Below, piece after piece: positions 1 through 46,866 of a stretch of 55,092 nt of DNA. The notes beneath the pieces were generated by a model. It had not been told where the DNA came from, did no database searches, and was given only the letters and a program-made list of their open reading frames with translations. The DNA is from Prorocentrum cordatum (lineage: Eukaryota): the NCBI GenBank assembly GCA_963575745.1, contig CAUYUJ010000185.1, positions 62,001 through 117,092 on the forward strand. Reading direction: 5' to 3'. How positions within the stretch are numbered: position 1 is the first letter of the stretch; every line of letters begins with the position of its first letter. The translations under genes and the position numbers were made by a program.

Positions 1-226
1 GTCGCTGCTAGGGCGCGGCAATGGCCACCTGTACCATGTGCGGGGATATCGCGCATGGGGTGCAATGTTTCTCTTTTTAGGTCGAGCGGTTGCACCTAGG
101 GACGACGACGGCGACGCCGAATGCGTGCACATGTGCTCACCTGACGACATGTCACCCCCAAACACCAACATTCCCACACATTCTGCAAAATTATCGTGCG
201 CGTCGTGTCCGGACTGCGCGCGCTAC

Positions 227-432
227 CGATGACCCACCGATGACCTACCGATGACGCGTCATCGATGAGCTCATCGATGAGCTCATCGATGAGCTCATCG
301 ATGACCTGCCCCAAACCATATATATATATACGAAAAGTGCGATGTCGCATCGATGACTTACCGATGACCATCGATGTCCTACCGATGATCCACCGATGAC
401 CCACCGATGACCCACCGATGACCTACCGATGA
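227..432. repeat. Array of CCGATGAC/CATCGATG motifs, including tandem 12-bp palindromes CTCATCGATGAG
   Basis: gtcatcgatgagctcatcgatgagctcatcgatgagctcatcgatgacc plus flanking accgatgaccc units. Confidence 0.9.
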
Positions 433-689
433 CACGCCGACAAGAGCTCCCAAACCGTGACACGATGCCCTCCTAAAGCATTATGATGTCGAAGGAATCG
501 AGATAGTGTACGACCCGCCCATGTATTCTACATCATATTGCAGACATCGTCGTCGTCGTCAGTGTTATCATCATCATCACTGGTGTTTAAGCTATTCTGC
601 ACACGCGGTAGGCACTACGATCACGCCATCGTTGCTCACTTGTTTGCACCATCGTGTTCAGAGCCGCGTTTGGCTCGATTAATTGGACC

Positions 690-3600
690 ATGGAGGTCCG
701 TAGGCGGCGCACCTTGTCACCGCCCGTGGCACCAGCTGCGAGGGCCGAATCTGGAGAGGCCCTGCTCGCTGAGTTTCAACGTTTATTTTGTCTCGGCACC
801 ATCACAGCCAAAAGCTTTTGCGAGCTCGCGTACCACGCAGCCCGAGCTGGGGCCGTCGGGGAAATCAAGCAGTGGGGTCTAGCGCCTCAGCCGCAAGCGA
901 ACAGTGGAAACTACAACAAGCTCATCGAACGCAAGATCCGTGATGCTGGTGTCACTGTTGTACAACCCGTTAGCATAGATGTGCCATGCCAGGCACGGAA
1001 ATCTCGCAGCAGAGCCATCATGCAAACTGGAGCGCGCCCATTCCACGAGCTTGTGAAATCTGAAGTTGCATCACCGTTGTCTGCATTGGTTATGCGAGAG
1101 CGCATCTCCGACCGATCGTGGCCCCCCGCGTTCAACGAACATCCTGTCAAGGTCGGTGCTGGCCCTGGTGTCCTAGTCATACCAGTCGGTTTGTTTGTGG
1201 ATGCAGCGCAATATGGTGGCGCTGCTGGCGCTGGTCGGAGTAAATCTGTCTTGGTGTTTTCAATTATCAATTTGGCGACCCAGCGTCGCCATGTGGGGAT
1301 CACGTTTCGGAAGCACCTTCATTGTAAATGCGGCTGTCGCGGCAATTGCTCATATGCCAGGCTGTTCACATTTGTACGCTGGTGCGCCGACGCAATGTCG
1401 ACTGGTGAATACCCTCGGTCCGACTGGGACGGGCGGCGGTGGGCGGACGCCGATGCGGCGCGACGTGCGCTCGGTGGTACAAAGTTGGGCTTCAAATGTG
1501 CGCTGATTTACGTGATGGTAGACTGGGAAGCCCTGGTCAATCACCTTGGGCTGCCGCAGTGGAACTCGACTGTGGGATCCTGCCCGCTATGTGATTCAAC
1601 GCTGGCGAACAGGCACAGTTACAGGTGAGCGTTTTTTTTTCCATTCATTCATGCCAGTCGCGAAGTCATCATCCTCACCCTTTGTTTCGTCGTCCTCCAT
1701 TTCCTCCTACTCCTCCTTCCCCTCATCATCCTCCTAACCCACCCCCTTCTCGTCCCTCTCCCAACCCCTCCGCGACGGCGGAGGCGGCGACGACGTGCGT
1801 CCGGTTAGCATGAGTAATTCCAAACGCACGGTGCAACCAGCTCGACGCGCGCACGTGCATGCAACGAGACAATCCTTGCAGCAAGTGACGGGGGTATGTT
1901 GCAGCGCCTCGAGTAGGTCGCGTTTTTGATGTGTGGGCCCACATTAAAATTTAACCCCTGTGTACGCACATCATCCCTGGAGGATTGTCTCGTGACACGC
2001 TTGCTCCTGCTTGCAGCTTGGTAGAAGCATGCCGCTACCAGCCTTCTTCTTGAAGATGAGTCGCCCTGGGTAGATCACGATCAAGGTGACCACCTGGATG
2101 CGACGGCGCGCGCAACTGTGTGGGTCTTCATCGGATCAGAAACGGAACGAGCCGAGCTTTGGAGTTGTGCAGGCATGTATTTCGACAGGCGCAAGCGTGG
2201 TAGAGGCCTGACTGTCGGACGCCCCGTGCCCCCGATCAACGCTGCCAGTGCCGCTTTGGTTCCTGGGGACCGACTCTTCCCCCAGACTGGTTTGGAAGAT
2301 GTGGCGACGTACGCCGTTGTTGATTTCCCTGGTTGGATTAAGTTCTGGCGGCCTTCCAGGGCGACAATCGTAACTCAACCAAATCCTATCTGGGAGACAG
2401 GGGCAGGACAAGTCAGCGTTGTTGGTTCATATGCTATAGACTTTCTGCACACCGTTGCCCTTGGGGTGATGGGATCGGTAGTATGCTCGACGGCGTGGGC
2501 GGTGCTCGCATCTGATGTGTTTGCTCCGAAGGGCTTGGACAAGTCAACTCGGCATTCTCTCGGGATTGGACGTTTGAATGCATTGCTGGATGCTTGGTAT
2601 TCTGAAGAAGCCCGACAAGGTCGGACACCAAATCAAGTGGAAGGGCTTGTACCGACAATGTTCGGATCCCCAGGGAAACATGCAGTGAAAACGAAGGGGG
2701 CAGAAACGATAGACTTGTTTCGCTGGTGTGTCGAATCTATTTTGCCTGTCTATGCTGCTCGTATCCAGCATGGGGAGAACTTGTTATCGTGTGCGCAAGC
2801 TTTGTACGATTGGTATACATATCTCAAACAACAACCCGATTGTGTCCCAGATGATGCATGCGAGAATTTGAAAACGCTTGCCCTTCGACACCTCGTTCGG
2901 TTGCGAGCTGCACGAATTGTTTTACGTCCAAAGCACCACTTGTTCTGGCACCTGAATGCAAGGACCACATGCCTCTCCCTTGCGGTGATCGTTCAATGGG
3001 GGAGGGTAACATTTGACTCAGTGGTGAGGGTCAGGACGAACAGGAGGAGGAGGAAGAGTAACAGGAGGAGGAGGTGGGGGGTGATGAATGACGACTGCAA
3101 CATTCAAAACACAAACATGGGGACGGCGCGACGAATGCAGCAACGGTGTGGTCCGTTTGTCCTACTTTCCACACGAGATCAGACCTCGTACCATTCGCAT
3201 CGATGATGCATCGGTGGTGTGTCGATCGTGAATCATTGACGCATCGATGACGCATCGATGACGCATCGACGAGGCATCGATGATGCATCGATGATGCATC
3301 TGCGTCGAATCGGCGATGCATCGGTGGTGCATATGTGGCGATCGTCGTGCCGCAGTCGGTCGGACATAGCGTACACGCGTGAGTCCTTAGGTTGGTGGGG
3401 GGCTTGCGTTCTTGCTTACCAGAGCTGTACGTTAGTTTCGTCAGTGTGGACCCCGTGGGCCAAATAGATGCGGTGCCTCCCGAAACACGTGTTCTCCAAT
3501 CACCAAAGACAGTGCATCCCCATCAATGCGTGAGTCGGGCAATCGACACACCTTTCTCTGGCCACTCGCCATGGGACATCCTCGCAACGCCACCTGGTAA

Positions 3601-4088
3601 TAGCCAATATGATTCAATATCCTTATTCTGTTCTACTTCCCCTTCGGTCCCTCTTCATTGCTACTGTTGTCATTATACGCAGCTCCTCCCTCTCATAACC
3701 CTCCTCTCGCACATCTCCCACTGCTCAGCACGGGGCGAGGGGCCTTCACGAAGGCCGATCCGACGCCTCGCCGTCTGGTCAACGCCCCCCCCCCCCCCCA
3801 ATCCACGTCTCCGTGCCCTCTCACTCGGGGCAGTCTCCCTCACATCACCCTCTGATCCTCCTCTCCCCTGACCCCCATCAAATCCATCCATCGCCTCCTG
3901 AGCCCGAGAGGATTTCAGTTTTCGGGCACCCGCGCCTCTATGCCACCTGGCGGGATGAAACGCTCAATGCTCTCATAGCAAATTTGGCTGAAGTGAGTCA
4001 CAGTGCACAGTTTGAACGTGGTATATTCCAACGGCTTGATCTACAAGCCGCCTTGAACATCGGTGCGTCGCGACCACGCTTGCCCTGA
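690..4088 (+). CDS. Spliced DDE transposase, CMC (CACTA/Mirage)/Plavaka-like; exons 690-1624, 2042-2962, 3911-4088 (~677 aa)
   Basis: The exons join in frame (AG|GTGAG...CAG|C and AG|GACC...GAG|G). Motifs occur in the expected order: GLFVDA (D at 1200), CKCGCRG, VMVDWE (D at 1521), CPLC (1581), IDFLHTVALGV (2439), PKHHLFWHL (2931), GHPRLYATWRDETLN (E at 3957). Confidence 0.8.
3198..3325. repeat. GCATCGATG motif array inside transposase intron 2
   Basis: gcatcgatgacgcatcgatgacgcatcgacgaggcatcgatgatgcatcgatgatgcatc. Confidence 0.85.
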
Positions 4089-4160
4089 TTATCCTGATAG
4101 GTATTGCATCGCCTGGTATATCGTCTCCAGTTCCTACGTGGGTTTCGGAATTGGCCTCAG

Positions 4161-5217
4161 GCAATGATGACCAGTCGTATTGGGGACAAGTGCAGTATGT
4201 GGCTAGAACGGTGCCTTCTTTACTACACACAGGTGCACATGTGGCAAATGCTCGTGACGCACGTGACCCTACCCCCTCCCCAGTCCATCTTGCGCGTCGC
4301 CACGGCTGGAATCATATCGAATTCTAGCATGCTCACTACACGTCGGGGCGTGCGTTTGTTGCGAAGTGTCAGCCAGGTGCTATCGTACGGGACCTGGACT
4401 TCGCTCATATTTTCAGTGGGCGGGACTCACCTGGACGAGCCGCCCGCCGCAGGTCTTTGTCAGTTGACACCTTTGACATTCTAGATGACCCGAGTCTCGA
4501 CATCGCAACGTGTGCTGGGATGCTGTGGGCGGCCATCATGTGTGCCAGAGTTCGCCGTTCTGGCATGGTGCATTTCGGCATTGATTGCAGAAGCTTTGCT
4601 TGGATCTCTCGTTGGCAGAGTGGCAGGACCAAATCAGATCCAGTTGGGGACGACGGTTACCATCTATCTGCTCTCGGTAACCTCATGACGCTGTTCGTGA
4701 GTTGGGTTGGAACGTACCTGCATCTGAACGGAGTGTACTTTGGAATCGAGCAGCCAGTGTGCTCGATCATGAAGCATCATCCTGCGTTTTTGAGCCTGTC
4801 GCGGCGAATTAAGATCAACACTCTGTGCACGTGGTTGGGTGCGTTTGACAGCAAGCTCCCAATCCACAAAGGCATCCATATCTTTTCCAGCGCTTCGCGC
4901 AACTCCGAACCACGCATGCATCGAGATCTAACCCCCTTGGCCCCAACGCACCACGCCGCGTTCTGTTACCACGCGCTTCTCGCTCTGATTGCAGAGCAAC
5001 GGACACCACAGCGCCCTTAGACATCGTGAGTCGCTATTTGCGCAGGGCTAAGCCGAAGAAGGCGAAGTCGCGCAAGAGCCGTTCGTCTCACTGGACGCAG
5101 GTTGGAAATTGCGTCGTGGGTGGCCCAGCGCTGAAAGGTTCTGGTGCGTACCCTAGGGCGTTCGGAGAAAGCATGGCCAGGATGATCGTTCGTTTGCTCG
5201 CAGCTGATTCGCGCTGA
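4161..5217 (+). CDS. C5-cytosine DNA methyltransferase of the divergent transposon/virus type; exons ~4161-4232, 4377-~4889, ~5012-5217
   Basis: Motif I RDLDFAHIFSG (4388-4420), motifs II/III VDTFDILDDPSLDI, motif IV FGIDCRSF (Cys at 4586), GN helix, motif VI GIEQP (4742-4756), TWLGAF...HKG, and C-terminal SGAYPRAFG (~5140-5166). The 5' start and last intron boundaries are uncertain. Confidence 0.75.
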
Positions 5218-6261
5218 CTGTCATTAGCCGCTGTTGAGATTGAAGCGCGCATGTGCAAGTGCCGCAATTCGGAGTTATTTTATTCCAGCTGCTGTGTGGT
5301 ACTGGTGCTGAGCATTCCTACGCACGTGTGGAAGCATGTGTGGGCGTGTGTGCTCTCGTGAACTTGTATTTCGCCTTCGGTTCCAGACTGCTAATTCGCA
5401 TCGCCGTCCAATCATCTCTTTAAAGGGGGGGCGCTCTGATGTATCAGCGATGTACAACGCGCGAACATGCATCGGCGATGTCGTCGCTCCTGGGTCCTAA
5501 CTTGCGCACCAAGCCCCCACCATCATCACCATCATTATCATCATCGTTGCTGCCGCCATCATCGTCACCGTCGCACTCACTCAATCACGATTCCCTCTCT
5601 CCTCCACCAACAGGGTAGCATTCTTGCGGTGCGCGTGGTCTCAGATCCCGACCAGATACTGGAATGCCTCCATCAACGATGCATCGGCAATGCGTCGGCG
5701 GCGGTGCATCGGCGAGCGGGGGTGCGTCCGGTAAAGATCTGGCACCGTTCAATTGGCAGGGCGGCGGGCGCCTGCCCCGTGACAGGATGAGCACGCGTGC
5801 CTGGCAGCGCGCGGCGTTGGATTGCCTCTGCTCCGACCCGAACTGTCGCAACACCGTCTCCCCGACTCCCCATCATAGCTATCACTTCTGTCTCTGCTAC
5901 TCTTCTTCTCTGATTCTCAATTCCCTCCACCCTCGCCATCATGCGAACGCTGCGCGTGCCACACCTGCAGGGGTTGGAAGAGGAGGGAAGTAAATATGAG
6001 AGGGCGGAGGATGAGGAGGAGTTGGGTGCGGAGGGAGGGGAGGAGGAGGACGAGAACGATGATCCAGATAAAGATGAGAATGAGGCGGAGGCCTCGTCTT
6101 TCTGTCGCGGCCTTGGTCCGACCACCAAACTAACATTTGCATGGCCTACAATTCCACGCTACTTCGGCCCCCGCGCTCCTGTCCGTAGCACTTCATCTCA
6201 AGCCTTGCATTTGAGCGAGTTGAGTTTGTGTACGGTACTTCAGCCTTCAGTGGCTGCAGTG

Positions 6262-7166
6262 ATGAGCGCTCAGCAGCAGTTCCTGCTGAAGGGCCAGAAC
6301 GTGAACATTTCGAGAGTGGCCTGGATGCACGTGTACCTGGAGAATCTCCAGACGTGGGGCTTCTTCCCATTCTCTTGCGTGAACCAGGCCATGGGCGAGA
6401 AGAGTAACATGAGCGCAGCCGATGGCGAGCCTGAGGAGACTGCATTCGGAGTGTCGCCATCGGCTGTCAAGAACGAGCTCGGCATATACTTGTCGGAGTA
6501 CACGGATCCCACCGTCATCAAGATCTACATTGCTTACGGCCTCAAAGACGGAACCATCCCGAGGAAGGGCGGCGCCGAATACGGTAGCCATGATATCATC
6601 AGGCCAGAAACGTGGTTGTACATCGAGACTTCAGTTGCGCCACAGACGCCAGATTCGTGGAAGGACGCAGCGTGGCCCGATGATGACTACAATAACACCT
6701 TGGCCGAGAGCGCAGACGGCGTCGGCTCCGTGACGGTGTTCATCCAGGAGAAGGACGACTGGGAAACGATCATGCCCCCGCCCAAGGAGGTTCGCACAAT
6801 CAAGGGCACGGGCGTCGTGACGAACTACAACACGATTGTGCTCAAGAAGTGCGTGGCAAGCACGATGGGTATCGACGCCACTTCGAAAGGCGCCGTGAAC
6901 CAGATCCGCGTCTACCGCACCGAGGAGAGCGGCCAGGCAACGGGCTCCCCGTTGAAGGGCAACGTCTTGATCAACACGAAGCTGTCGTACGTGGTCGCGA
7001 TCGAACCAGACACTGTCGTGGAGGTGTTCGAGAAGAATGTGCTCAGCTGGGACATCGGCGACAACACGATGCTGGACGGGCCTCAGTGATCAAGCACGTC
7101 TTCAACGAGACGGTCATCTTTGCTCGCCATCGGACGAGCACGCCGCGACGCCGCTTGACGGCATAA
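6262..7166 (+). CDS. Uncharacterised accessory protein of the transposon cassette; possible frameshift near 7075-7090
   Basis: Non-repetitive ORF with strong C/G third-position bias from the ATG at 6262 to the stop at 7089. Coding-like sequence continues in another frame (ASVIKHVFNETVIFARH) to 7166. There may be additional upstream exons around 5670-5850. Confidence 0.55.
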
Positions 7167-7427
7167 GAGCTACAGCGCTCACCAACGGCACACCGACCTC
7201 AGCCGCCGTGGGTGCACCGCAAAAACGAGGCCAACAGTTGCATCAGCATCACCACACCTGTGCCATCATTGTTGCTACGCTTGTCTGCGTAATGTCTTAA
7301 CAGATTCGTTCAGCCCGTGTCGTTGTTTACGCAGCTGCCACCGCGTCCGGTATCCCTCTCTGGATCCCCGTGCCTCGCTGGGGTCTGCTACGCTCGCAGA
7401 GCTCGACGTGATCGAGCGTGGGCCAGA

Positions 7428-7752
7428 GATGCATCGGCGAGCAAACGATCATCGATGCGTCATCGATGACCTCATCGATGACGCGATGATGCATCGGCGA
7501 CGCATCTGCAACTACGGGACGACTACTGAACCTGGAACCTCGCAGCGTAGCAACGCCACCCTTATTCCGACAACTACCACTCCTCCCTCACTCGCCTCCC
7601 ACTCTATCCATCCTACGTCGTCTGCACCCGTTTCTTTCCACGCTCAATCCCCTGTTCCCGAGTCGGCAATGCATCGGCGCGGCAACCATCGATGAACTCA
7701 TCGATGTGTCCTTGACGAAATAGAGCAGTGCATCGGCGATGCATCGACGATC
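7428..7752. repeat. CATCGATG motif clusters between accessory ORFs
   Basis: atcatcgatgcgtcatcgatgacctcatcgatgacgc (7448-7485) and ccatcgatgaactcatcgatg (7686-7706). Confidence 0.85.
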
Positions 7753-7949
7753 CGCTTGACTACCCCGACGGATGTGGGGCCCATCAATTACACGGATGGA
7801 TGTTGGTGAGATCAATGGGCAGGTGCAGTTCAACACATATTGCGGATGGGGGCGGCTCGTTTGCAATTGTTTCAGACGTGAAACGAGTACGGGCCATCAA
7901 GGGTGATAAACATGATGATGATGATGATGTTGGTGACGATGGTGTAGCC

Positions 7950-8696
7950 GTTTTTGGGTTCGAGCTGCCGTTCGAGAGTTGCGATAGCTCCGATTGCAAC
8001 GAGCGCGACGCGCCAGCTGTGCGCCTCAACATCGCGTCGCACCCAGCGGCGTCGCACGAAGCTCGCACGTGGGCGCAGTACGGGGTTCTTCGGGCTACTG
8101 CAGCACAGGTGGGCGACGTCGGCGACGTGCAGGTCAACGGGAACATCAGCAACGACAACGAGCATTTCGGGCCGACCGAATACGAGCTATTCGACCCTGA
8201 CGACATGAGCCCGTCGGAAGGTGACGACGAACAGATGCCTGAAGCCGAAGGCGGCTCCAACGGGCCCGACGACACGGCGCAGCACGACAAGACGGAGAGC
8301 GGCACCGAGCAGCACGTGAAGCAGCATCATCAGCAGCAGCACGAGGATTCAGAGCTCGCCGTGACGAATGATGCCAACATGAAGGCGTTCGCTGAGGAAG
8401 TGGCCGCCTGGGATACGACGCTCGAGACGATGCGGGGCCACGTCGACGCCATCAAGGTACTGACCGAGAAGAACGAGCAGGCGGAGAAGAAGAAGCTCGA
8501 TCGCCTGCTGAAGCAGGTGAGGCCGCCCGCTGGCCCACTCGCCGACCTCGTGGCGCCTGCTGGCGCGCTCAGCGGCCTGGTGGGCAACGCGGAGCTCACC
8601 ACGGCTGCGCCGCCGCCGCCGATCGAGCCGCCCGCGATGGCCGAGCCGATCTCGTGGCCGTCGCCTACGTCGCCGACGGCAGACGAGCTCGCGTAG
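7950..8696 (+). CDS. Uncharacterised acidic/coiled-coil/Pro-rich protein (3' part of ORF 7728-8696)
   Basis: Codon-biased ORF with an acidic region, a heptad-like segment (MKAFAEEVAAWDTTLETMRGHVDAIKVLTEKNEQAEKKKLDRLLKQ) and a Pro-rich tail. The start is uncertain. Confidence 0.5.
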   Translation, partial: VFGFELPFESCDSSDCNERDAPAVRLNIASHPAASHEARTWAQYGVLRATAAQVGDVGDVQVNGNISNDNEHFGPTEYELFDPDDMSPSEGDDEQMPEAEGGSNGPDDTAQHDKTESGTEQHVKQHHQQQHEDSELAVTNDANMKAFAEEVAAWDTTLETMRGHVDAIKVLTEKNEQAEKKKLDRLLKQVRPPAGPLADLVAPAGALSGLVGNAELTTAAPPPPIEPPAMAEPISWPSPTSPTADELA

Positions 8697-8772
8697 GTCG
8701 AGGATTGCGGCGGCATTCGAACAAACGAGTGGCGATGGAGAGGATGAGGAGGATGATGGTGGTGATGATGAT

Positions 8773-8803
<31 letters not shown>

Positions 8804-8939
8804 AGGAAGGGGACGATGATGAGTAGGATGAGGAGGAGGCGGAGGAGGACGAGGAGGCTGAGGAGGCTGAGGAGGGGCAGGAGGAGGAGGAGGATGATGA
8901 GGAGGAGGAGGATGAGGATGAGGCGGAGGAGAAGGATGA

Positions 8940-8970
<31 letters not shown>

Positions 8971-9029
8971 GAGGAGAAGGAGGAGGAGGAGGAAGAGGAG
9001 GAGGATTGTTGGGGTCGGTGGCACGTTGA

Positions 9030-9090
9030 CGCATCATCGATGAGTCATCGATGAGTCATCGATGACGCATCGATGACGCGTCGATGCGCC
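9030..9090. repeat. CATCGATG array at the right end of the cassette (11-bp period)
   Basis: catcatcgatgagtcatcgatgagtcatcgatgacgcatcgatgacgcg. Confidence 0.9.
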
Positions 9091-9679
9091 GCCGACCGGT
9101 TCCCTGCTTCTCGCCCCCCTGCGCCCCAAAGGAGTGAGCTGCCGCGGAGCCTGCGCGCCGCGCGCGCTGCCCGTCGCCTGTCGCGGCGGAGGGTGTTTCC
9201 AGAGGGGAGGAGTGACACCGAAGGCGCTCCTCTTCCTCCTCCTCCTCCTCCTCCTCCTTCTCCTCCTTCTCCTTCTCCTCCCCCTCCCCTCCTCCTCCTC
9301 CTGCTCCTGCTCCTGCTGCTGCTGCTGCTGGTGATGCTGCTGCTGCTGCTGCTCCTCCTCCTTCTCCTCCTCATCCTCCTCCACCTCGTTCTCTTCATCC
9401 TGCTGCTGCTGCTGCTGCTGCTCCTCCTCCTCCTCCTCCTCCTCCTCATCATCATCCCACCGTTGAGGTCCCTGAGGCTGAGGAGGAGGAGGAGGAGGAG
9501 GACGAGGGGGAGGAAGAGGAGGATGAAGATGAGGAGCAGGATAATCAGGAGGAGGACGATCAGGAGAACGGGGGAGGGGGAGGGGAAGGTGGGGGGGCGA
9601 GGGGGGGGAGGAAAATGAGAAGGAGGAGGAGGAGGAGGAGGAGGAGGAGGACGAGGAGGAGGATGGATACGAGAACGGT

Positions 9680-9842
9680 GCAACCCACCGCAAACAGCGT
9701 ATGGTAGCCATCACGTCTTCAATAGATATGGCCACCCACCACAAACAGTGGATGGTAGCCGTCGCGTGTTTCACTCCATATGGCAACCCACCGCAAACAG
9801 TGGATGGTAACCGTCACATGTTTCACTCTATCTGGCAACCCC
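9680..9842. repeat. Minisatellite, ~52-bp unit x3
   Basis: GC(A/C)ACCCACC(G/A)CAAACAG..ATGGTA(G/A)CC repeated three times. Confidence 0.85.
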
Positions 9843-10569
9843 GGCTTTGTAGTCTGAGGTGAAGTTCGATAACATCGTCGAATTTCCTGGGATTTCGCTT
9901 GTAAAAAAAACAGCCGTTTTGGACTGAGAACCACGCGATATCGCGGCGGAAGTAAGTACAGTGTTTGAGACTCGCCATTCGCGCTTTACTGAACAACATC
10001 TGCTTCTCCTCCTCCTCGTCCTCCTCTTCCTCCTGCTCCTCCTCCTGCTCCTCCTCCTGCTCCTCCTCCTGCTCCTCTTCCTGATCCACCAGCTCCTCCT
10101 CCTTCTTCCGTTCCTCCTCCTTCTCATCCTTCGCCTCATCCCTCTCCTCCTCCTCCTCCTCCTCCTCCTCCTCTCCTCCTCCTCCTCCTCCCCTCCCCTC
10201 CCCTCCCCTCCCCTCCCCTCCCCTCCCCGCCCCTCCCTCCATCTCGCTCTCGACTTCTCCTCCTCCTTCTCTTCGTCCTGCCCCTCCCTCCCTTCTTCGG
10301 AGCGGCGGGTGGCCTCGATCTCGTAGTGGAAGTGCTCGGTGAATAAGTACGGCGCCGCTCTGCGAAGACATGGCCAGGGGCAGGCGGCACAGACAACAGC
10401 CGATTATCATATTTTGGGAAGGACCAGAAGTCTTTTTCGACGCAAGCGTTTCGCCTGATGAATCTTCACAGAATTTCCGAACGAATTCCTAAAACGATCA
10501 ATATGTTCATGCCTAACTCGCTGAATTCCGATGCAACAGCCATCATTACCCACTACATCGAAAGCTCAC

Positions 10570-10657
10570 GTCTTAGAATAGCACTTCAAGTCCTAGAATA
10601 GTACTTCATGTCTTAGATGATACAAATCTAGCACTTGAGTCCTAGAATAGCACTTGG
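10570..10657. repeat. Short ~20-bp tandem repeat GTC(T/C)TAGAATAG(C/T)ACTT
   Basis: Three to four degenerate copies are visible. Confidence 0.75.
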
Positions 10658-13477
10658 ACCACGCATGCGAAGTCCAACGCTTGTTTTAGCAAGTGGCAAC
10701 CCTCTGGGGGCCTTGCGCCTTTGCCCGGCGCCTTAATCCGGCGCCTTAGCCCGGCGCCTCGGCCGCCTCAGCCGGGCGCCTGAGCGGGCCTTGAGCGACC
10801 GGGTCACGATTTGGAATGCATCGGGGGTCGCCTCGGTGCCATCCTGGGCAATCATAATGCTTCTTCGGGCCATCTCGGGACCCAGTCGCGTCGTTCTGGC
10901 GCTCTCTCCGGGTGTCTGAATGCCTCTCGGATAATTTTGGAACGACGTTCTGCCTTCCTGGGCGGCCTCGGACGCCCAGAACGCAGAAGAAGCGAACATT
11001 CTCCGAATCCGCCGACCCCGTCGGCGCGCCCGAGTCGCCAGTTCGTTTGACTTGCGCGCAAAACGGGCCGACATGCTGCGCGCGGGCACAGCTCAGCCGA
11101 AACCCGAACGTCCGACAATGGCACCGCCCACGCGCCCCACCCCCCACTCGCCCCCAGGCCGAGACGAGGGCCCCGTCGCGCGGCAAGTCAGGTCGAGATC
11201 GACAAGTCCTCAAACCAGACACCAGCATGCACGAGGACCGCGCAGGGCAGATCGCCCAAACCCAGATCGCTTGAACACTACGCCGAACGGCAACGAAGGG
11301 CACAGACTCACGCTTCGGGAGCACAACGCGCACGCAGGAGACGGGATACAGATGGGCAAACTATGACAAAACCGGGGGGGCGGGGAACCCGACGCAGCCG
11401 ACGTTATAACCTTTGGCGCAACCGCTGCCCCAACCAACGGCGCAGGCGGACAGAACGAACCTACTCGTGATTCGCGGGAACAAGAGCAATGACGCAACCT
11501 ACGGTCCACGGCGCAACTCACTCAGCAAAATGCGCCGCGTCGCCCCCGCCCCCCTCGGCAGCGCGATCACGATTGAAAATGAACGGACCGACCTGCTGCG
11601 CGCGGGCGCCCCTCAGCCTGCAACCGAACGCCCGACAATGGCGCGGCCCATAACTACTAGGCGCAATCAGGGGGGCAGCGCAGGGCGGAAACCGCGGGCG
11701 GAGCGGGCAATCGGGCCCACGTCGACGATAAGTGGGCGACTGGGCTATTGGGGGTCAACGCGCCCCCCCCTGGGCTTAGAAAAACATGCAAATTTTCCTC
11801 CCGCCACGCGCCCTCTACCTCCCCCTCCCCCCTGGCCAAGCCTAGGGGCCCGCGGCGTGGCCGGCCGAGCCAAGCTCGACTACTCCTCGAGCTGGGCTCC
11901 CAGAAGCCACCCAGATCCCCCGCTCGGACCGAAGCCCAGGCATCCCGGGCCGCAGCAGGCGGCCCCTCTAAGTCTCGAAGGCGCCAGCGGCGCCCTCGGC
12001 CAGGGCGCGCCCCAGGGCGCGCCCCGTCGCGCCAGGCGCGCCCGCGGGCCCCTCGGGGGGGCGGGGGCTCGGCGGGCGCGCCCGCCACCGCTGGCCGCCA
12101 ACGCGCGAGCGGTCGGCGGGCGGCGCCAGGTCGCCCCTGGAAGGCCGGCCGCCCACGTCCTCTGCTGGGACCGCGGCCAGCCCGCCCCGGGCCGCAGCGG
12201 GCGCGCCCAGGGCGCTTCGCCGGCGCCGGCGGCGCCCTCGGCCGGGGCGCGCCCCGGGGCGCCGGGCGCGGCCGAACCCCTCGGGGGCGGGCTCGGCGGG
12301 CGGGCCCGCCCGCCAGCGGCAAGCAGCCCAAGCTGGTCAACGCGAGGCGAGCGCCCAGAAGCACCCAACATGGCCCCCAAGGCCCCACAGAGCTCCAAGA
12401 GCGCCCCACTAGCAGAGAATCTGCACAAACTTTCGCGTCGCTGTCGTCGTCGTCGTCTGCGCTGTCGTCGTCGCCGTCGTCGTCGTCGCCGTCGTCGTGT
12501 CCTCCGTCCTCGTCTTGTCGCCTACCTGCCCAACAAGCGTCTTCTTCTGCGCCTCACCCCCCCCCCTGCCCCGCCCCCCCCCACCCGCCGCCCCCCCCCC
12601 CTGCCCCCCCCCGCAGCCCTCCCCCCCCCACTATTCCGCCCCCCCCCATGCGGCCGCGCATCTGGTGCGCGCCCGACGCCGAGTTCAGCGAGCAAGCAAG
12701 CGCCGCGGACAAGACGGACGCACCCCCCCCCCCCCGCGCCACGCCGCCGCGCGTGCCTCGCGAAGGCAACTTGCCAGGCGATTATGTTTGGATGGGCTGG
12801 CGGGGGCGCGCGAAGCGCGAAGCATCCAGATCGTCGCCCAAAATCGCAGCCGCCTCCGCGCTCGCGGTCGTCGAGCCGGCAAGCAGGGAGCGCGTCCCAC
12901 TGCGCGACTCCCCGCGCGGGACTGATACGCGCGTCGGGGCGTGCACAGCGGAGGCGGGGCCCTCTGCGCAGAGCGCCCAAGAGAAAGGCGCGCCCGAAGA
13001 CGCGAACCGCTTCGACGCGCATCCAGAGATGGCAGCTACAACCCCGTAGGACCGCGCGATCACGACGCGCATCTGCGCCCCGTCGCCACGCGCGATCCTC
13101 GCCGCAGCAGCACCGAGACGCGGCGTCGCCATGCACCTTTCGCTGACAGCCTCGACGTAACTCTGGCGATGGCTGCAACTCTGCCATGGCAGCAGGAGGC
13201 CGCGCGGGCCCTGGCGTCGCCGATGCAACCTGCAGACCGCGCAAACAAATCCGGCATCGCCTCGCACCTCCGTCGCGCACAGCATCAGAATTACACGCCG
13301 CGCCCTCGTAAGTACCCAGACTCGCTCGCGCCTGAGAGAGTCGATTTCCGCATTCGCATCCAGCGGCCACGCCTGGCGGGCGGGCGAAGGGCACGCCTGG
13401 CACGCAGACCTCGAACCACAAGTCGCCAGAGCAGAAGAGGAGGAAAAGGAAGAGGATGTGAGAGGATGAATATAGAG

Positions 13478-17125: not shown

Positions 17126-19129
17126 TTTCAACAAAAGCGTGCGCGCGCGCTCCGGCGTCGTCGTCGTCGTCGTCGCCGTCCTCCCTCCTCCCGCGTCGTC
17201 GCCGCCGTCGTCGCCTACGTCGTCCTCTGTCTTTTCTCGTGTTCGTCGTCGTCGTCCTCTTTGGCGTCGTGGTCGTTTCCGTCGTCGTTGTCGCCGTGGT
17301 CGTCTTTCCTCCTCCTCCCACGTCGTCGTCGTCGTCCGTCGTCGGCGTCTCGTCGTCGTCCCTCCTATTTCGTCGCCGTCGTCGTCGTCGTTGTCGTCGT
17401 CGTCTTCCTCCTCCCTCGTCGTTGTCGTCGTCGGCGTCGCGGTCCTTCCTCCTTCGTCGTCGTTCGCGTCGTCGCCGTCCTCCCTCCTCCCTCGTCGTTG
17501 TCGTCGTTGTCGTCGTTGTCGCCGTCGTCGTCCTTCCTCCTCCCTCGTCGTCGCCTTCGTTGGCGTCGTCGTCGTCTTCGTCGTCGTCGGCGTCGGCGTC
17601 GTTGTCGTCGTCGAAGTCGTCGGAGACGTCGTCGGTGTCGTCCTAGTCGTTGTCGTCGGTGTCGTCGTAGTCGGTCTGAACAGGTTTTGCAAACCAAGTT
17701 GCGGGTGGGTGGGTGGGATGTTTGCACAAGCAGTGGAGAGGACAGCTTTCAGACAGTCAAAGTGGACTGCACCACCTAGACTGCAACGCGTTGATTGCAC
17801 CACCGAGATTGCACCATATTGACTGGACCACCGCGAATATTGTACGATGTCACTGTGTGGGGCCCACGCTAACTAGCATGTTTCGGCAAAGATAGGAGCT
17901 CCAAATGGCAAGCATGGATGTGATAGTTTTCATACATCAACATACACGTACCCATATAGACAGCAAGACAGGCAACTAGAATGTGCATACATGATTATAG
18001 AATGTGGGAAGGCCAGCCGAACTCTAGGCAAATACACAGAGAAACAAGGAGGCAACGATAGAAACCTCTAGATGTCTGCTGCTAGATTCAATTATGCACG
18101 GCTGCTGGATACAGGTACAAATAACGGCGTAATACGTTATCTCTCTACATATATATATATACATACATATAGAGAGGCATACGAATGTAATAATCTGCAC
18201 GTACACAGGTGTGGGCATTGGCATAATTACATGTATAGTGGAGCACTGCAAATAGAACCACAAATAATCAAACATCTACCAGTGTCGTACATGAATGCAC
18301 GTACGCCGGCATATCAAACATATGCGCGTAATAGGCACATGCGTACATGTGCGTGTGCAGAGACGTTTGTTCGTAGATACCGTCCCTCATATACGAATTC
18401 GGATTCCTGTACACATATAGAGAGTACGAAAAAAATGTTGTGTAAATATATACACACATATACATATATATATATATATATATGTACATTCAATATTATA
18501 TGCACCCCTTATAGACATATGCATACATATGTGCATACATTGATGCGCAACTACATACAAACATGCTACCCGGTCCTCGGCATCGCCATGATCAGATTCA
18601 CGAGCACATTCACCACCATCACCGACGTGAACGAATCGTGGTCGTCGGTTCAACGGTGCTGGTTCGGCGTTGGAAAAAACCTCGAGGGAGCCCACTCACG
18701 GCGAACAAAGCAAGAGAAACTACGTGAACTGAGGGGGGCGCCGCGCCCATCCCCCGCCCCCCGCAGGGCGGTCTTGTTAGTAAACTCATCTTGTTCTTCA
18801 TCCCCGTCCCGCTTCCTCCTCCTCCTCCTCCTCCGCATCATCATCATCACCACCACCATCATCACACCCAGACCCATACCCATACTCATACTCATACGCA
18901 TTATCATAACCATACTCAGACTCACACTCACACTCACACTCATACTCATACTCATACTCATACTTGTACTCGTCCTCGTACTCGTCCTCCGCCTCCCCCT
19001 CCTCCTCCTCCATCTCCTCCTCCTTCTCCTCCTCGTTCGACTGATTCACGTCCACGCATCCCCTACCCCCCAGCCCCGCGATGACAACGGGGACCGCGGG
19101 GCGCGCGAGAGCGCGCCGGTGACTGCGGT

Positions 19130-46866
<27,737 letters not shown>

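What the first reader, a model, noticed from the sequence alone, without database searches (positions are those of the whole stretch)
227..9090. Palindromic CATCGATG arrays punctuate the cassette: candidate methyl-sensitive binding sites
The CG-centred palindrome CATCGATG and its half-sites (CCGATG, CATCGG) cluster before the transposase (227-432), inside its intron 2 (3198-3325), after the DNMT (~5468, 5680-5715), between ORFs (7428-7752) and at the right end (9030-9090). They have 11-12 bp periodicity, about one helical turn. The arrays avoid the exons and are not seen in this form elsewhere in the window. CACTA elements use 12-bp subterminal repeats bound by TnpA in a methylation-sensitive way. 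Here the motif could be the target of the linked DNMT or of an accessory ORF, forming a self-contained epigenetic switch.
Basis: partly seen in the sequence, partly recalled or inferred. Interest (0 to 1): 0.72.

Follow-up and report, generated by a model that had tools for sequence, protein, structure and literature searches.

The report
Phased palindrome arrays marking a transposon
Short CG-centred palindromes, repeated once per turn of the DNA helix, fill the non-coding parts of a multi-gene jumping gene from a marine protist and recur in a distant relative, so they are most likely docking sites for one of the element's own proteins: a known kind of transposon feature in a new setting.

Summary
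All 20 CATCGATG sites of the 55-kb window lie in 260-9075 (1.29 expected). They form 11-12-bp arrays confined to non-coding DNA.

ORF A is an intact three-exon gene. Its family has 1180 relatives and no Pfam hit. A relative's model (pLDDT 93) matches the RAG1 core at Z 14.7. It is therefore a RAG1/Transib-like DDE transposase.

The key evidence is one metagenome relative, L001, 51% identical in exon 1. It carries the same 11-bp CCGATGAC array, in the same orientation and split by the same spacer, upstream of its transposase gene. The flanks do not align.

The "DNMT" is not confirmed. Pfam, PHROGs, NCBIfam and PDB gave nothing, hhalign gave probability 0.15% and the fold failed.

No terminal inverted repeats were found, and no methylation data exist.

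Best reading: these are clustered recognition sites for an element-encoded protein, like Spm TnpA sites and VANDAL21 VANC sites (confidence 0.55). The methylation-switch idea stays speculative.

Earlier scan notes on other pieces of this genome describe RAG1-like multi-gene transposons and a methyltransferase-like gene behind a transposase. None mentions CATCGATG arrays.

The parts
167..214 (+). Upstream words shared with the relative L001: AACATTCCCA (167-176) and TCGTGTCCGGAC (203-214, containing the palindrome GTCCGGAC)
   Evidence: Each occurs once in the window and once in L001, in both cases upstream of the array. Homology therefore extends left of the arrays.
226..304 (+). Array 1a: three CCGATGAC half-sites at 11 bp, then four full palindromes (TCATCGATGAGC) at 12 bp
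   Evidence: As single-stranded DNA it folds into a 21-bp-stem hairpin, z -6.7.
305..339 (.). Spacer with CCAAACC (311-317) and a (TA)n run (318-330) between the two halves of the 5' array
   Evidence: L001 has the same layout: CCAAACC at 815-821, then an AT-rich 18-bp perfect palindrome at 820-837.
340..433 (+). Array 1b: nine CGATG units at 10-11 bp, all in + orientation, two of them full palindromes (348, 369)
   Evidence: It has no hairpin potential, z 0.36.
690..4088 (+). ORF A, a RAG1/Transib-like DDE transposase gene. Exons 690-1624, 2042-2984 and 3903 (or 3919)-4088. Intron 1 is 1625-2041 and intron 2 is 2985-3902
   Evidence: The spliced model (tested with acceptor 3918) has 683 codons with a single stop at the end. 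It aligns over 20-680 to the full-length relative P0020. Homologues. Fold.
3198..3326 (+). Array 2, inside intron 2 of ORF A: five CATCGATG in 11-bp GCATCGATGAY units, plus two TGCATCGGTG half-sites (3207, 3317)
4079..5217 (+). ORF B, a methyltransferase-like gene of uncertain family. The conserved frame runs 4079-4945 with an in-frame TAG at 4325-4327 and no ATG before the conserved N-terminal part. A probable C-terminal exon lies within 4995-5217
   Evidence: P0007 residues 2-290 align to 4079-4945 in one HSP at 50.5% identity. Relatives P0006 and P0007. No family hit.
5448..5714 (+). Array 3: two small clusters (5448-5480, 5677-5714) with three TGCATCGGCR half-sites and flanking CGATG
6262..7089 (+). 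ORF C, 275 codons, no introns seen, no family match
7430..7749 (+). Arrays 4 and 5 between ORF C and ORF D. 7430-7499 holds three CATCGATG flanked by two TGCATCGGCG. 7670-7749 holds two CATCGATG and two TGCATCGGCG
   Evidence: The fold of 7425-7505 gives z -4.2.
7800..8696 (+). ORF D (first ATG at 7800), an acidic, low-complexity protein with no family match
9035..9086 (+). Array 6: four CATCGATG at 11 bp plus CGTCGATG. It is the last array of the window
   Evidence: Fold z -5.4. It aligns to 253-304 equally well directly and inverted (score 78 against 78), so it gives no evidence of a terminal inverted repeat.

Best explanation
The arrays are clustered, helically phased recognition sites that belong to a multi-gene DNA transposon. 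That transposon carries a RAG1/Transib-like DDE transposase (ORF A). The recognised word is the pentamer CATCG/CGATG. It occurs as a half-site (CCGATGAC in the 5' region, TGCATCGGYG inside the cassette in the opposite orientation). It also occurs as a head-to-head full site (CATCGATG). The 11-12-bp repeat puts successive sites on one face of the helix, which favours cooperative binding of several copies of one protein. I infer that the binder is encoded by the element: the transposase itself, or ORF C or ORF D acting like an accessory protein. I also infer that binding marks the element's own non-coding DNA. At the 5' end the sites flank an AT-rich core about 360 bp before the transposase start codon, which is the expected place for its promoter. 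There they would control transcription and help assemble the transposition complex, as TnpA does at Spm ends. In the intron and between the genes they would act on chromatin or methylation across the element, as VANC21 does on VANDAL21. What is shown: the arrays, their phasing, their restriction to non-coding DNA, their polarity, the transposase fold, and conservation of the 5' array in one relative. What is inferred: protein binding, the identity of the binder and the effect of binding.
For: - **Enrichment and clustering.** 20 of 20 CATCGATG lie in 260-9075 against 1.29 expected. There are 36 phased pentamer pairs inside 1-9100 and 0 in the other 46 kb.
- **Same word in six separate non-coding places.** The other 265 tandem-repeat rows of the window do not have this unit.
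- **Conservation.** L001 encodes an exon-1 relative at 51% identity. It carries 9 CCGATGAC (10 CGATGA units), all on +, at 762-918, which is 460-620 bp before its ATG. Most units sit at 11-bp spacing, one is a full palindrome, and the array is split by a spacer with CCAAACC plus an AT-rich palindrome, as in the window. The 8-bp core is constant, the 3-bp linkers differ (CCY in the window, ACA/ACT in L001) and the flanks do not align.
- **The motif, not a hairpin, is the common feature.** Palindromic arrays fold (z -6.7, -4.2, -5.4), but the conserved half-site array does not (z 0.36).
- **Intact transposase of the RAG1 structural class.** Model pLDDT 93.3. Foldseek finds RAG1 at E 6.2e-6. VIA gives Z 14.7 over 464 residues. 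The spliced ORF is open and keeps D171, D278 and E640.
- **Published precedents.** TnpA of Spm binds clustered CG-containing motifs at element termini and causes CG hypomethylation (bioRxiv 10.64898/2026.08.24.746577, section 4 read). VANC21 binds motifs that form tandem repeats in introns, intergenic and terminal non-coding regions of VANDAL21 (PMC5735166, two sections read).
Against: - Only one related locus with DNA could be obtained, and it covers only the 5' region. Conservation of the intron, intergenic and 3' arrays is untested.
- No terminal inverted repeats or target-site duplication were found. It is not shown that the 9 kb is one element, or that ORF C and ORF D belong to it.
- No ORF has a recognisable DNA-binding domain. 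The RAG1 match starts at RAG1 residue about 460, so no counterpart of the nonamer-binding domain is seen.
- Tandem arrays can grow by slippage without any function.
- In run X1 the bins holding arrays are deeper than the gene bins (86.6 and 20.6 against about 2-12). This could mean array-like DNA exists elsewhere in the genome, unlinked to the element. These depths are sums over contigs and are not copy numbers.
Confidence: 0.55

Rival explanations
1. ORF B is an active cytosine-5 methyltransferase that targets the central CpG of the arrays. An element protein reads the methylation state, so the element sets its own epigenetic state.
For: - The motif is centred on CpG.
- ORF B follows the transposase gene directly.
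- Its family keeps a G-P-D-C-x-S-F stretch that hhalign pairs with motif IV of known enzymes.
- By eye, stretches resembling motifs I, II, III, VI and VIII appear in the canonical order and at roughly similar spacing. This is my own reading.
- The ESM Atlas puts ORF B next to a cluster auto-named as a C5-methyltransferase family (0.96) and at 0.86 to a PF00145-bearing cluster. This is a lead only.
- An earlier scan note (e1-7629118, unchecked) calls a similar gene methyltransferase-shaped.
Against: - No Pfam, PHROGs or NCBIfam hit for ORF B or its 2 relatives at E up to 10.
- hhalign against 8 known C5 enzymes gives probability 0.15%, E 0.38, over 12 columns only.
- PDB sequence searches found no methyltransferase.
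- The AlphaFold model was unusable, pLDDT 35.
- The canonical PC, ENV and QxRxR residues are replaced.
- This copy has an in-frame TAG and no start codon before the conserved part.
- CpG observed/expected is about 1 in the cassette (1.06) and the flank (0.92), so there is no footprint of methylation decay either way.
Confidence: 0.1
2. The arrays are passive minisatellites. A slippage-prone 11-12-bp unit has expanded repeatedly in the element's non-coding DNA and has no function.
For: - The window is extremely rich in tandem repeats (290 TRF rows).
- Linkers within each array are homogeneous, as local expansion predicts.
- Short 11-bp CCGATGAC tandem repeats turn up in 73 unrelated prokaryote loci, so such units can arise anywhere.
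Against: - The same core recurs in six separate places within 9 kb and nowhere else in 46 kb.
- The core, orientation, split layout and position are kept in a relative with 51% protein identity, while linkers and flanks have changed.
- Two site types show consistent strand polarity.
Confidence: 0.15
3. The arrays are gene-control modules read by a host factor. Each gene of the cassette would have its own promoter, enhancer or terminator built from a host transcription-factor site.
For: - Arrays lie before ORF A, before ORF C, before ORF D and after ORF D.
- The 5' array flanks a TATA-like AT-rich core that is conserved in layout in L001.
Against: - No such arrays occur in the remaining 46 kb. 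However, no gene could be recognised there (0 of 20 ORFs had a Pfam hit), so the comparison is weak.
- One array sits in the middle of a 918-bp intron.
- Half-site polarity is opposite before ORF A and before ORFs C and D.
Confidence: 0.15
4. The arrays act through DNA structure, as cruciforms or as an origin-like iteron and unwinding element, and serve replication or recombination of the element.
For: - Three arrays can form long perfect hairpins (z -6.7, -4.2, -5.4).
- The 5' region looks like iterons around an AT-rich core.
Against: - The conserved half-site arrays have no hairpin potential (z 0.36).
- No replication protein is recognisable in the cassette.
Confidence: 0.05

Closest known systems
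Subterminal TnpA-binding repeats of En/Spm (CACTA) transposons
   Same: - A short CG-containing word is clustered at high density, in direct and inverted orientation, in the non-coding 5' region next to the element's promoter.
- The motif diverges between related elements.
- The transposase belongs to the wider CMCT grouping.
- Sources: PMC2613891 (passages); bioRxiv 10.64898/2026.08.24.746577 (section 4); PMC12730594 (outline and passages).
   Different: - No CACTA termini found.
- No Transposase_21 or other Pfam hit.
- Arrays also lie in an intron and between genes.
- The full site is a perfect palindrome.
- No TnpA-like protein is recognisable.
VANC21 target motifs of VANDAL21 (Mutator superfamily, Arabidopsis)
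   Same: Binding motifs are organised as fast-evolving tandem repeats. [quoted passage not shown]
   Different: - Different transposase superfamily.
- The VANC motif (YAGTATTAY) has no CpG and is not a palindrome.
- None of ORFs A-D has a VANC-type domain or any other Pfam hit.
- Binding and hypomethylation are shown experimentally for VANC and are untested here.
Transib, ProtoRAG and RAG1
   Same: - The whole catalytic core of the ORF A family superposes on RAG1 460-1007 (Z 14.7) and on BbRAGL (Z 13.4).
- Conserved D, D and E, and a C..C / H...H pair next to the second D and the E. As I recall, this is the spacing of the RAG1 zinc site. That is recall, not a test.
   Different: - As I recall, these elements use heptamer/nonamer-type terminal repeats and have no long motif arrays.
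- No such heptamer was found at the edges here.
- Sequence identity is only 9-12%.
Methyltransferase-carrying retrotransposons of Symbiodinium (SymbioLINE-Dnmt, SymbioDIRS-Dnmt3)
   Same: A mobile element of a dinoflagellate-like genome with a possible cytosine-methyltransferase-like gene (PMC5890265, passages).
   Different: - Those are retrotransposons whose DNMT domains match PF00145.
- ORF B matches no family.
- The element here is a DNA transposon.

Membership tests
CACTA / En-Spm (CMC) transposons | Transposase of the Tnp2/Transposase_21 type | tested here: not met
   No Pfam hit for the ORF A exons (E up to 0.1), for 5 exon-1 relatives (E up to 10) or for 28 of 28 longer relatives (E up to 0.01). 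The ESM Atlas gave only a rank-25 lead to a Plavaka cluster (0.91).
CACTA / En-Spm (CMC) transposons | Terminal inverted repeats starting CACTA, with a 3-bp target duplication | tested here: inconclusive
   No CACTA/TAGTG pair at the edges and no inverted repeat between 1-226 and the rest of the window. The left end may lie before base 1 of the window. The duplication cannot be tested without ends.
CACTA / En-Spm (CMC) transposons | Arrays of a short motif in the subterminal regions | tested here: inconclusive
   Arrays are present at 226-433 and 9035-9086. Because the ends are unknown, 'subterminal' is unproven. Arrays are also internal.
Transib / RAG-like transposons | RAG1-core-like fold with a DDE triad | tested here: met
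   Model of relative P0020 with 65 aligned rows: pLDDT 93.3. RAG1 at Foldseek E 6.2e-6. VIA Z 14.7, 464 residues aligned, rmsd 5.8. Nearly invariant D151 and D252 and a conserved DExxN. The window copy keeps D171, D278 and E640.
   No CAC..TG in 1-460 other than 461, and no CA..GTG in 8690-11000. The ends of the element are unknown.
VANC-type anti-silencing system (VANDAL) | Target motifs as tandem repeats in introns, intergenic and terminal non-coding DNA of the element | tested here: met
   Arrays lie upstream of ORF A, in its intron 2, between B and C, between C and D, and after D. 0 of 20 octamers fall in coding sequence.
VANC-type anti-silencing system (VANDAL) | Element-encoded VANC protein (DUF1985/DUF287) that binds the motif and lowers methylation | tested here: not met
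   No Pfam hit for ORFs A-D. Binding and methylation cannot be tested with these tools.
Cytosine-5 DNA methyltransferase (PF00145), for ORF B | Significant match to the family profile | tested here: not met
   No Pfam, PHROGs or NCBIfam hit for ORF B, P0006 or P0007. hhalign against Dcm plus 7 phage enzymes: probability 0.15%, E 0.38. tblastn against phages found none. PDB sequence searches found none.
Cytosine-5 DNA methyltransferase (PF00145), for ORF B | Catalytic motifs: PC (IV), ENV (VI), QxRxR (VIII), FxGxG (I) | tested here: not met
   The family has G-P-D-C (window copy G-I-D-C), I-E-Q-P, no QxRxR, and F-S-G-R-D. The motif names and consensus are recalled and also visible in alignment A6.
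Cytosine-5 DNA methyltransferase (PF00145), for ORF B | Methyltransferase fold | tested here: inconclusive
   AlphaFold on a 3-row alignment gave pLDDT 35.1, which is unusable. No further fold job was available.

The most novel reading that the evidence does not exclude
A DNA transposon with a RAG1-like transposase carries its own epigenetic module. A divergent cytosine-methyltransferase-like protein (the ORF B family) and a site-specific binder act on CpG-centred palindromes laid out in helical phase through all of the element's non-coding DNA. The element would then write or read its own methylation state and decide when it is expressed and moves. This would be the DNA-transposon counterpart of the DNMT-carrying retrotransposons of dinoflagellates and the mirror image of TET-carrying fungal transposons.
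Probability: 0.1. Interest if true: 0.85.

Novelty: new variant of a known kind. Interest (0 to 1): 0.5.

Why it matters
Motif arrays that let a transposon's own proteins recognise its copies are well studied only in plants (Spm/TnpA, VANDAL/VANC). Here the same design appears in a marine protist, probably a dinoflagellate. It is attached to a large transposase family (1180 cluster representatives) that Pfam does not catalogue and that folds like RAG1.

The site is short, palindromic, CpG-centred and conserved in one relative. This makes it directly testable by binding assays with methylated and unmethylated DNA and by methylation calls from long reads.

If binding is confirmed, it would give a first cis/trans handle on how DNA transposons are controlled in genomes where CG methylation is reported to be very high. 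It would also show that RAG1-like transposases can work with multi-site arrays and not only with a single heptamer/nonamer signal.

Tried and rejected
- **More related loci.**
  - Viral contigs by protein alignment found none (A1, A7).
  - Viral contigs by DNA pattern found 0.
  - Genome contigs by protein found none.
  - Genome contigs by the three-unit CCGATGAC pattern found 73 prokaryote loci with short 3-7-unit tandem repeats. None encodes a relative of ORFs A-D. I treat these as background unrelated to the element.
  - The single metagenome scan gave only L001.
  - No whole genome is held, and the genome search could not use L001.
- **Terminal repeats.**
  - The left and right arrays align equally well directly and inverted (78 against 78).
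  - Nothing but microsatellite matches links 1-226 to the rest of the window.
  - No CACTA or heptamer-type termini.
  - The right flank does not match L001's upstream region.
- **ORF B as a methyltransferase.** Pfam, PHROGs, NCBIfam, PDB sequence search, tblastn against phages, hhalign and AlphaFold all failed to support it.
- **Longer fused forms of exon 1.** None found (weak evidence, by the tool's own note).
- **Reads.**
  - No RNA holder was listed.
  - The laid runs are low-depth contigs. Depth peaks mostly sit on microsatellites. Array-to-array joints (434>7457, 3271>7449, 7750>3309) have short sides and cannot be interpreted.
- **Spliced-leader relics before the genes.** The only match in the cassette has 3 mismatches and lies inside exon 3.
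- **CpG depletion.** None seen: 1.06 in the cassette against 0.92 outside.
- **Rest of the window.** 0 of 20 large ORFs tested (out of 90 listed) had a Pfam hit.
- **Literature.**
  - A full-text search for the octamer returned only primer sequences among the 15 listed of 5,238 papers.
  - Searches for dinoflagellate plus Transib/RAG1/transposase and for DNA transposon, methyltransferase, Plavaka and CACTA listed no description of such arrays.

Full report
**1. The observation**

The octamer CATCGATG occurs 20 times in the 55,092-base window. All 20 lie between 260 and 9075. Dinucleotide-preserving shuffles give 1.29 on average and never more than 5.

Tandem Repeats Finder reports arrays of period 11 or 12 at 225-304, 340-440, 3197-3300, 5679-5719, 7449-7482, 7729-7751 and 9034-9086. 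Distances between same-strand CGATG pentamers pile up at 11 (16 pairs), 22 (10), 33 (7) and 44 (5), with a smaller series at 12, 24 and 36.

Pentamer pairs 11 or 12 bp apart number 36 in 1-9100 and 0 in the other 46 kb. Of the TRF rows, 11 of 25 in 1-9100 have CGATG/CATCG in the unit. Outside, 2 of 265 do, and neither is this unit. A pentamer cluster at 35299-35372 is only an ATC microsatellite.

- There are two half-site forms with fixed polarity. CCGATGAC occurs 8 of 8 times on the + strand in 226-433. TGCATCGGYG occurs 8 of 9 times on the + strand in 3207-7738. Read on one strand, both contain CATCGG, so the left arrays are inverted relative to the inner ones.
- The sites after ORF B (5468, 5680, 5705) are half-sites only.

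**2. The genes**

ORF A is a three-exon gene.
- Exon 1 (690-1624) has four metagenome relatives at 51-54% identity and one EukProt entry labelled Pyramimonas sp.. Four of the five end at the same YR, so the intron position is shared. The fifth (P0005) stops earlier.
- Exon 2 has 1180 relatives at E up to 0.001 in the 50%-identity library. Many are 600-800 residues long and cover exon 1, exon 2 and a short tail.
- A spliced model has 683 codons with a single stop at the end. It aligns over 20-680 to the full-length relative P0020. That test used acceptor 3918. Intron 1 is GT..AG. For intron 2 the canonical pairing is 2985-3902.

None of the 28 relatives tested has a Pfam hit. A model of P0020 built with 65 aligned rows has pLDDT 93.3.
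- Foldseek's 17 matches at E up to 0.001 are all RAG1 chains (best 6.2e-6). BbRAGL, the P element transposase and HzTransib follow.
- The second look gives Z 14.7 over 464 residues against RAG1 460-1007, 13.4 for BbRAGL, 9.3 for the P element and 8.0 for HzTransib.
- The alignment has nearly invariant D151 and D252, C272/C275 and a conserved DExxN. H579 and H583 are invariant in the 12-sequence alignment A7.
- The window copy keeps D171, D278 and E640.

ORF A is therefore an intact DDE transposase of the RAG1/Transib structural class. Kojima (PMC12730594; outline and passages seen) places that class with CACTA in 'CMCT'.

ORF B follows directly. The relative P0007 aligns to 4079-4945 in one stretch at 50.5% identity, across an in-frame TAG at 4325-4327. 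There is no ATG before the conserved N-terminal part. This copy of ORF B therefore looks damaged, or it needs upstream splicing.

I could not confirm that it is a cytosine methyltransferase:
- No Pfam, PHROGs or NCBIfam hit.
- No methyltransferase in PDB sequence searches.
- No tblastn hit in phages.
- An unusable fold, pLDDT 35.
- hhalign against E. coli Dcm plus seven phage enzymes gives probability 0.15%. It pairs only HFGpDCrSFaWi with the motif-IV stretch.

The ESM Atlas neighbours, the motif order I can see by eye and an earlier unchecked scan note (e1-7629118) keep the idea alive as a lead.

ORF C (6262-7089) and ORF D (7800-8696) match nothing.

**3. Where the arrays lie**

With these gene models, 4872 bp of 1-9100 are coding and 4228 bp are not. 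Coding sequence holds 0 of 20 CATCGATG, 0 of 9 TGCATCGG and 0 of 8 CCGATGAC.

The arrays sit in these places:
- before ORF A (226-304 and 340-433)
- in its intron 2 (3198-3326)
- between B and C (5448-5714)
- between C and D (7430-7499 and 7670-7749)
- after D (9035-9086)

**4. The relative**

The single metagenome scan returned one locus, L001 (2446 bp), whose exon 1 is 51% identical. From 762 to 918, which is 460-620 bp before its ATG, it has 9 CCGATGAC (10 CGATGA units), all on the + strand. Most sit at 11-bp spacing, and one is a full palindrome. The array is split by a spacer that holds CCAAACC and an AT-rich 18-bp perfect palindrome.

The window has the same plan: CCAAACC at 311-317 and a TA run at 318-330 between the two half-arrays. 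The 8-bp core is constant. The 3-bp linkers differ (CCY against ACA/ACT), and the DNA on both sides does not align.

Two words are shared upstream of the arrays, AACATTCCCA and TCGTGTCCGGAC. Each is unique in both sequences. The homologous region therefore extends left of the arrays.

This is the strongest evidence that the sites are under selection as sites. It rests on one locus and on the 5' region only.

**5. What they are not shown to be**

I found no terminal inverted repeats.
- The left and right arrays align equally well directly and inverted, because the unit is a palindrome.
- Nothing else pairs the first 226 bases with the rest of the window.
- There are no CACTA or heptamer-type termini.

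The limits of the element are unknown, and the left end may lie before base 1. Whether ORFs C and D are cargo of the same element is also unshown.

Hairpin potential is not the common feature. The palindromic arrays fold strongly (z -6.7, -4.2, -5.4), but the conserved half-site array does not (z 0.36).

Reads add little. One run holds 44% of the sampled words at about 3-fold contig depth over the genes. Two marine metagenome runs of another study hold pieces with no or one difference. Bins with arrays are deeper (86.6 and 20.6), but these sums are not copy numbers.

CpG observed/expected is near 1 inside and outside the cassette.

**6. Mechanism**

The best-supported reading is that the arrays are clustered recognition sites for a sequence-specific protein tied to the element. 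One site per helical turn places the sites on one face of the helix and favours cooperative binding. Full palindromes would take a head-to-head dimer.

The published parallels are close:
- Spm TnpA binds dense clusters of a CG-containing motif at element termini and triggers CG hypomethylation and transcription (bioRxiv 10.64898/2026.08.24.746577, section 4; background in PMC2613891 passages).
- VANC21 binds motifs that form fast-changing tandem repeats in introns, intergenic and terminal non-coding regions of VANDAL21 (PMC5735166, sections 7 and 9).

The distribution seen here matches the VANDAL pattern. The 5' array around an AT-rich core matches the Spm promoter pattern.

Binding, the binder and the effect are all inferred. 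The RAG1 match begins after the nonamer-binding domain. That leaves room for an accessory binder but proves nothing.

**7. Novelty**

Arrays of element-specific sites are a known kind of feature. Earlier notes of this scan describe similar transposon-end arrays in other genomes, and RAG1-like multi-gene transposons in other pieces of this genome. None mentions this motif.

What is new is the combination:
- a RAG1-like transposase family that Pfam does not cover
- a CpG-centred perfect palindrome
- arrays in every non-coding segment
- a marine protist host

I found no description of this in the searches. I rate it a new variant of a known kind, with interest 0.5.

Noticed in passing
window 4325-4327 and 4079-4520: The methyltransferase-like ORF B has one in-frame TAG inside a stretch that aligns to the intact relative P0007. 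It has no ATG before the conserved N-terminal part. Its conserved frame begins about 10 nt before the stop codon of ORF A.
   Followed up: partly
protein family of ORF A (P0008-P0157): This is a large family: 1180 cluster representatives at E up to 0.001. 28 of 28 tested members had no Pfam hit. It folds like the RAG1 core and has conserved C..C and H...H pairs next to the second D and the E.
   Followed up: partly
L001 820-837 and window 318-330: The spacer between the two halves of the 5' array is an AT-rich palindrome in both elements: an 18-bp perfect palindrome in L001 and a TA run in the window. Each is preceded by CCAAACC. It may be a promoter core or an unwinding site.
   Followed up: partly
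window 207-214; L001 651-658: The palindrome GTCCGGAC occurs once in the 55-kb window and once in L001, each time upstream of the array. L001 has two more TCCGGA(C) copies nearby (590, 601). This may be a second conserved site type.
   Followed up: partly
window 3993 to 4391: One contig of run X1, with depth 51.7, joins the predicted end of a GT-type site in ORF A exon 3 to the start of the conserved core of ORF B. It skips 397 bases, and what lies between is unknown.
   Followed up: no
window 9680-9841: A 52-bp tandem repeat (3.1 copies) lies just beyond the last array. It is flanked by long CTC/GAG microsatellites.
   Followed up: no
window 17156-23321 and elsewhere: There are very long trinucleotide microsatellites, for example CGT x170, TCC x106, TCA x139 and CCT x178. 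The window gives 290 tandem-repeat rows in all. 0 of 20 large ORFs tested outside the cassette had a Pfam hit.
   Followed up: no
L010-L082 (prokaryote genome contigs): 73 loci from many bacterial phyla hold short tandem repeats (3-7 units) of an 11-bp unit containing CCGATGAC. None encodes a relative of ORFs A-D. This is probably the background of 11-bp repeats in a very large collection, but no control pattern was run.
   Followed up: partly
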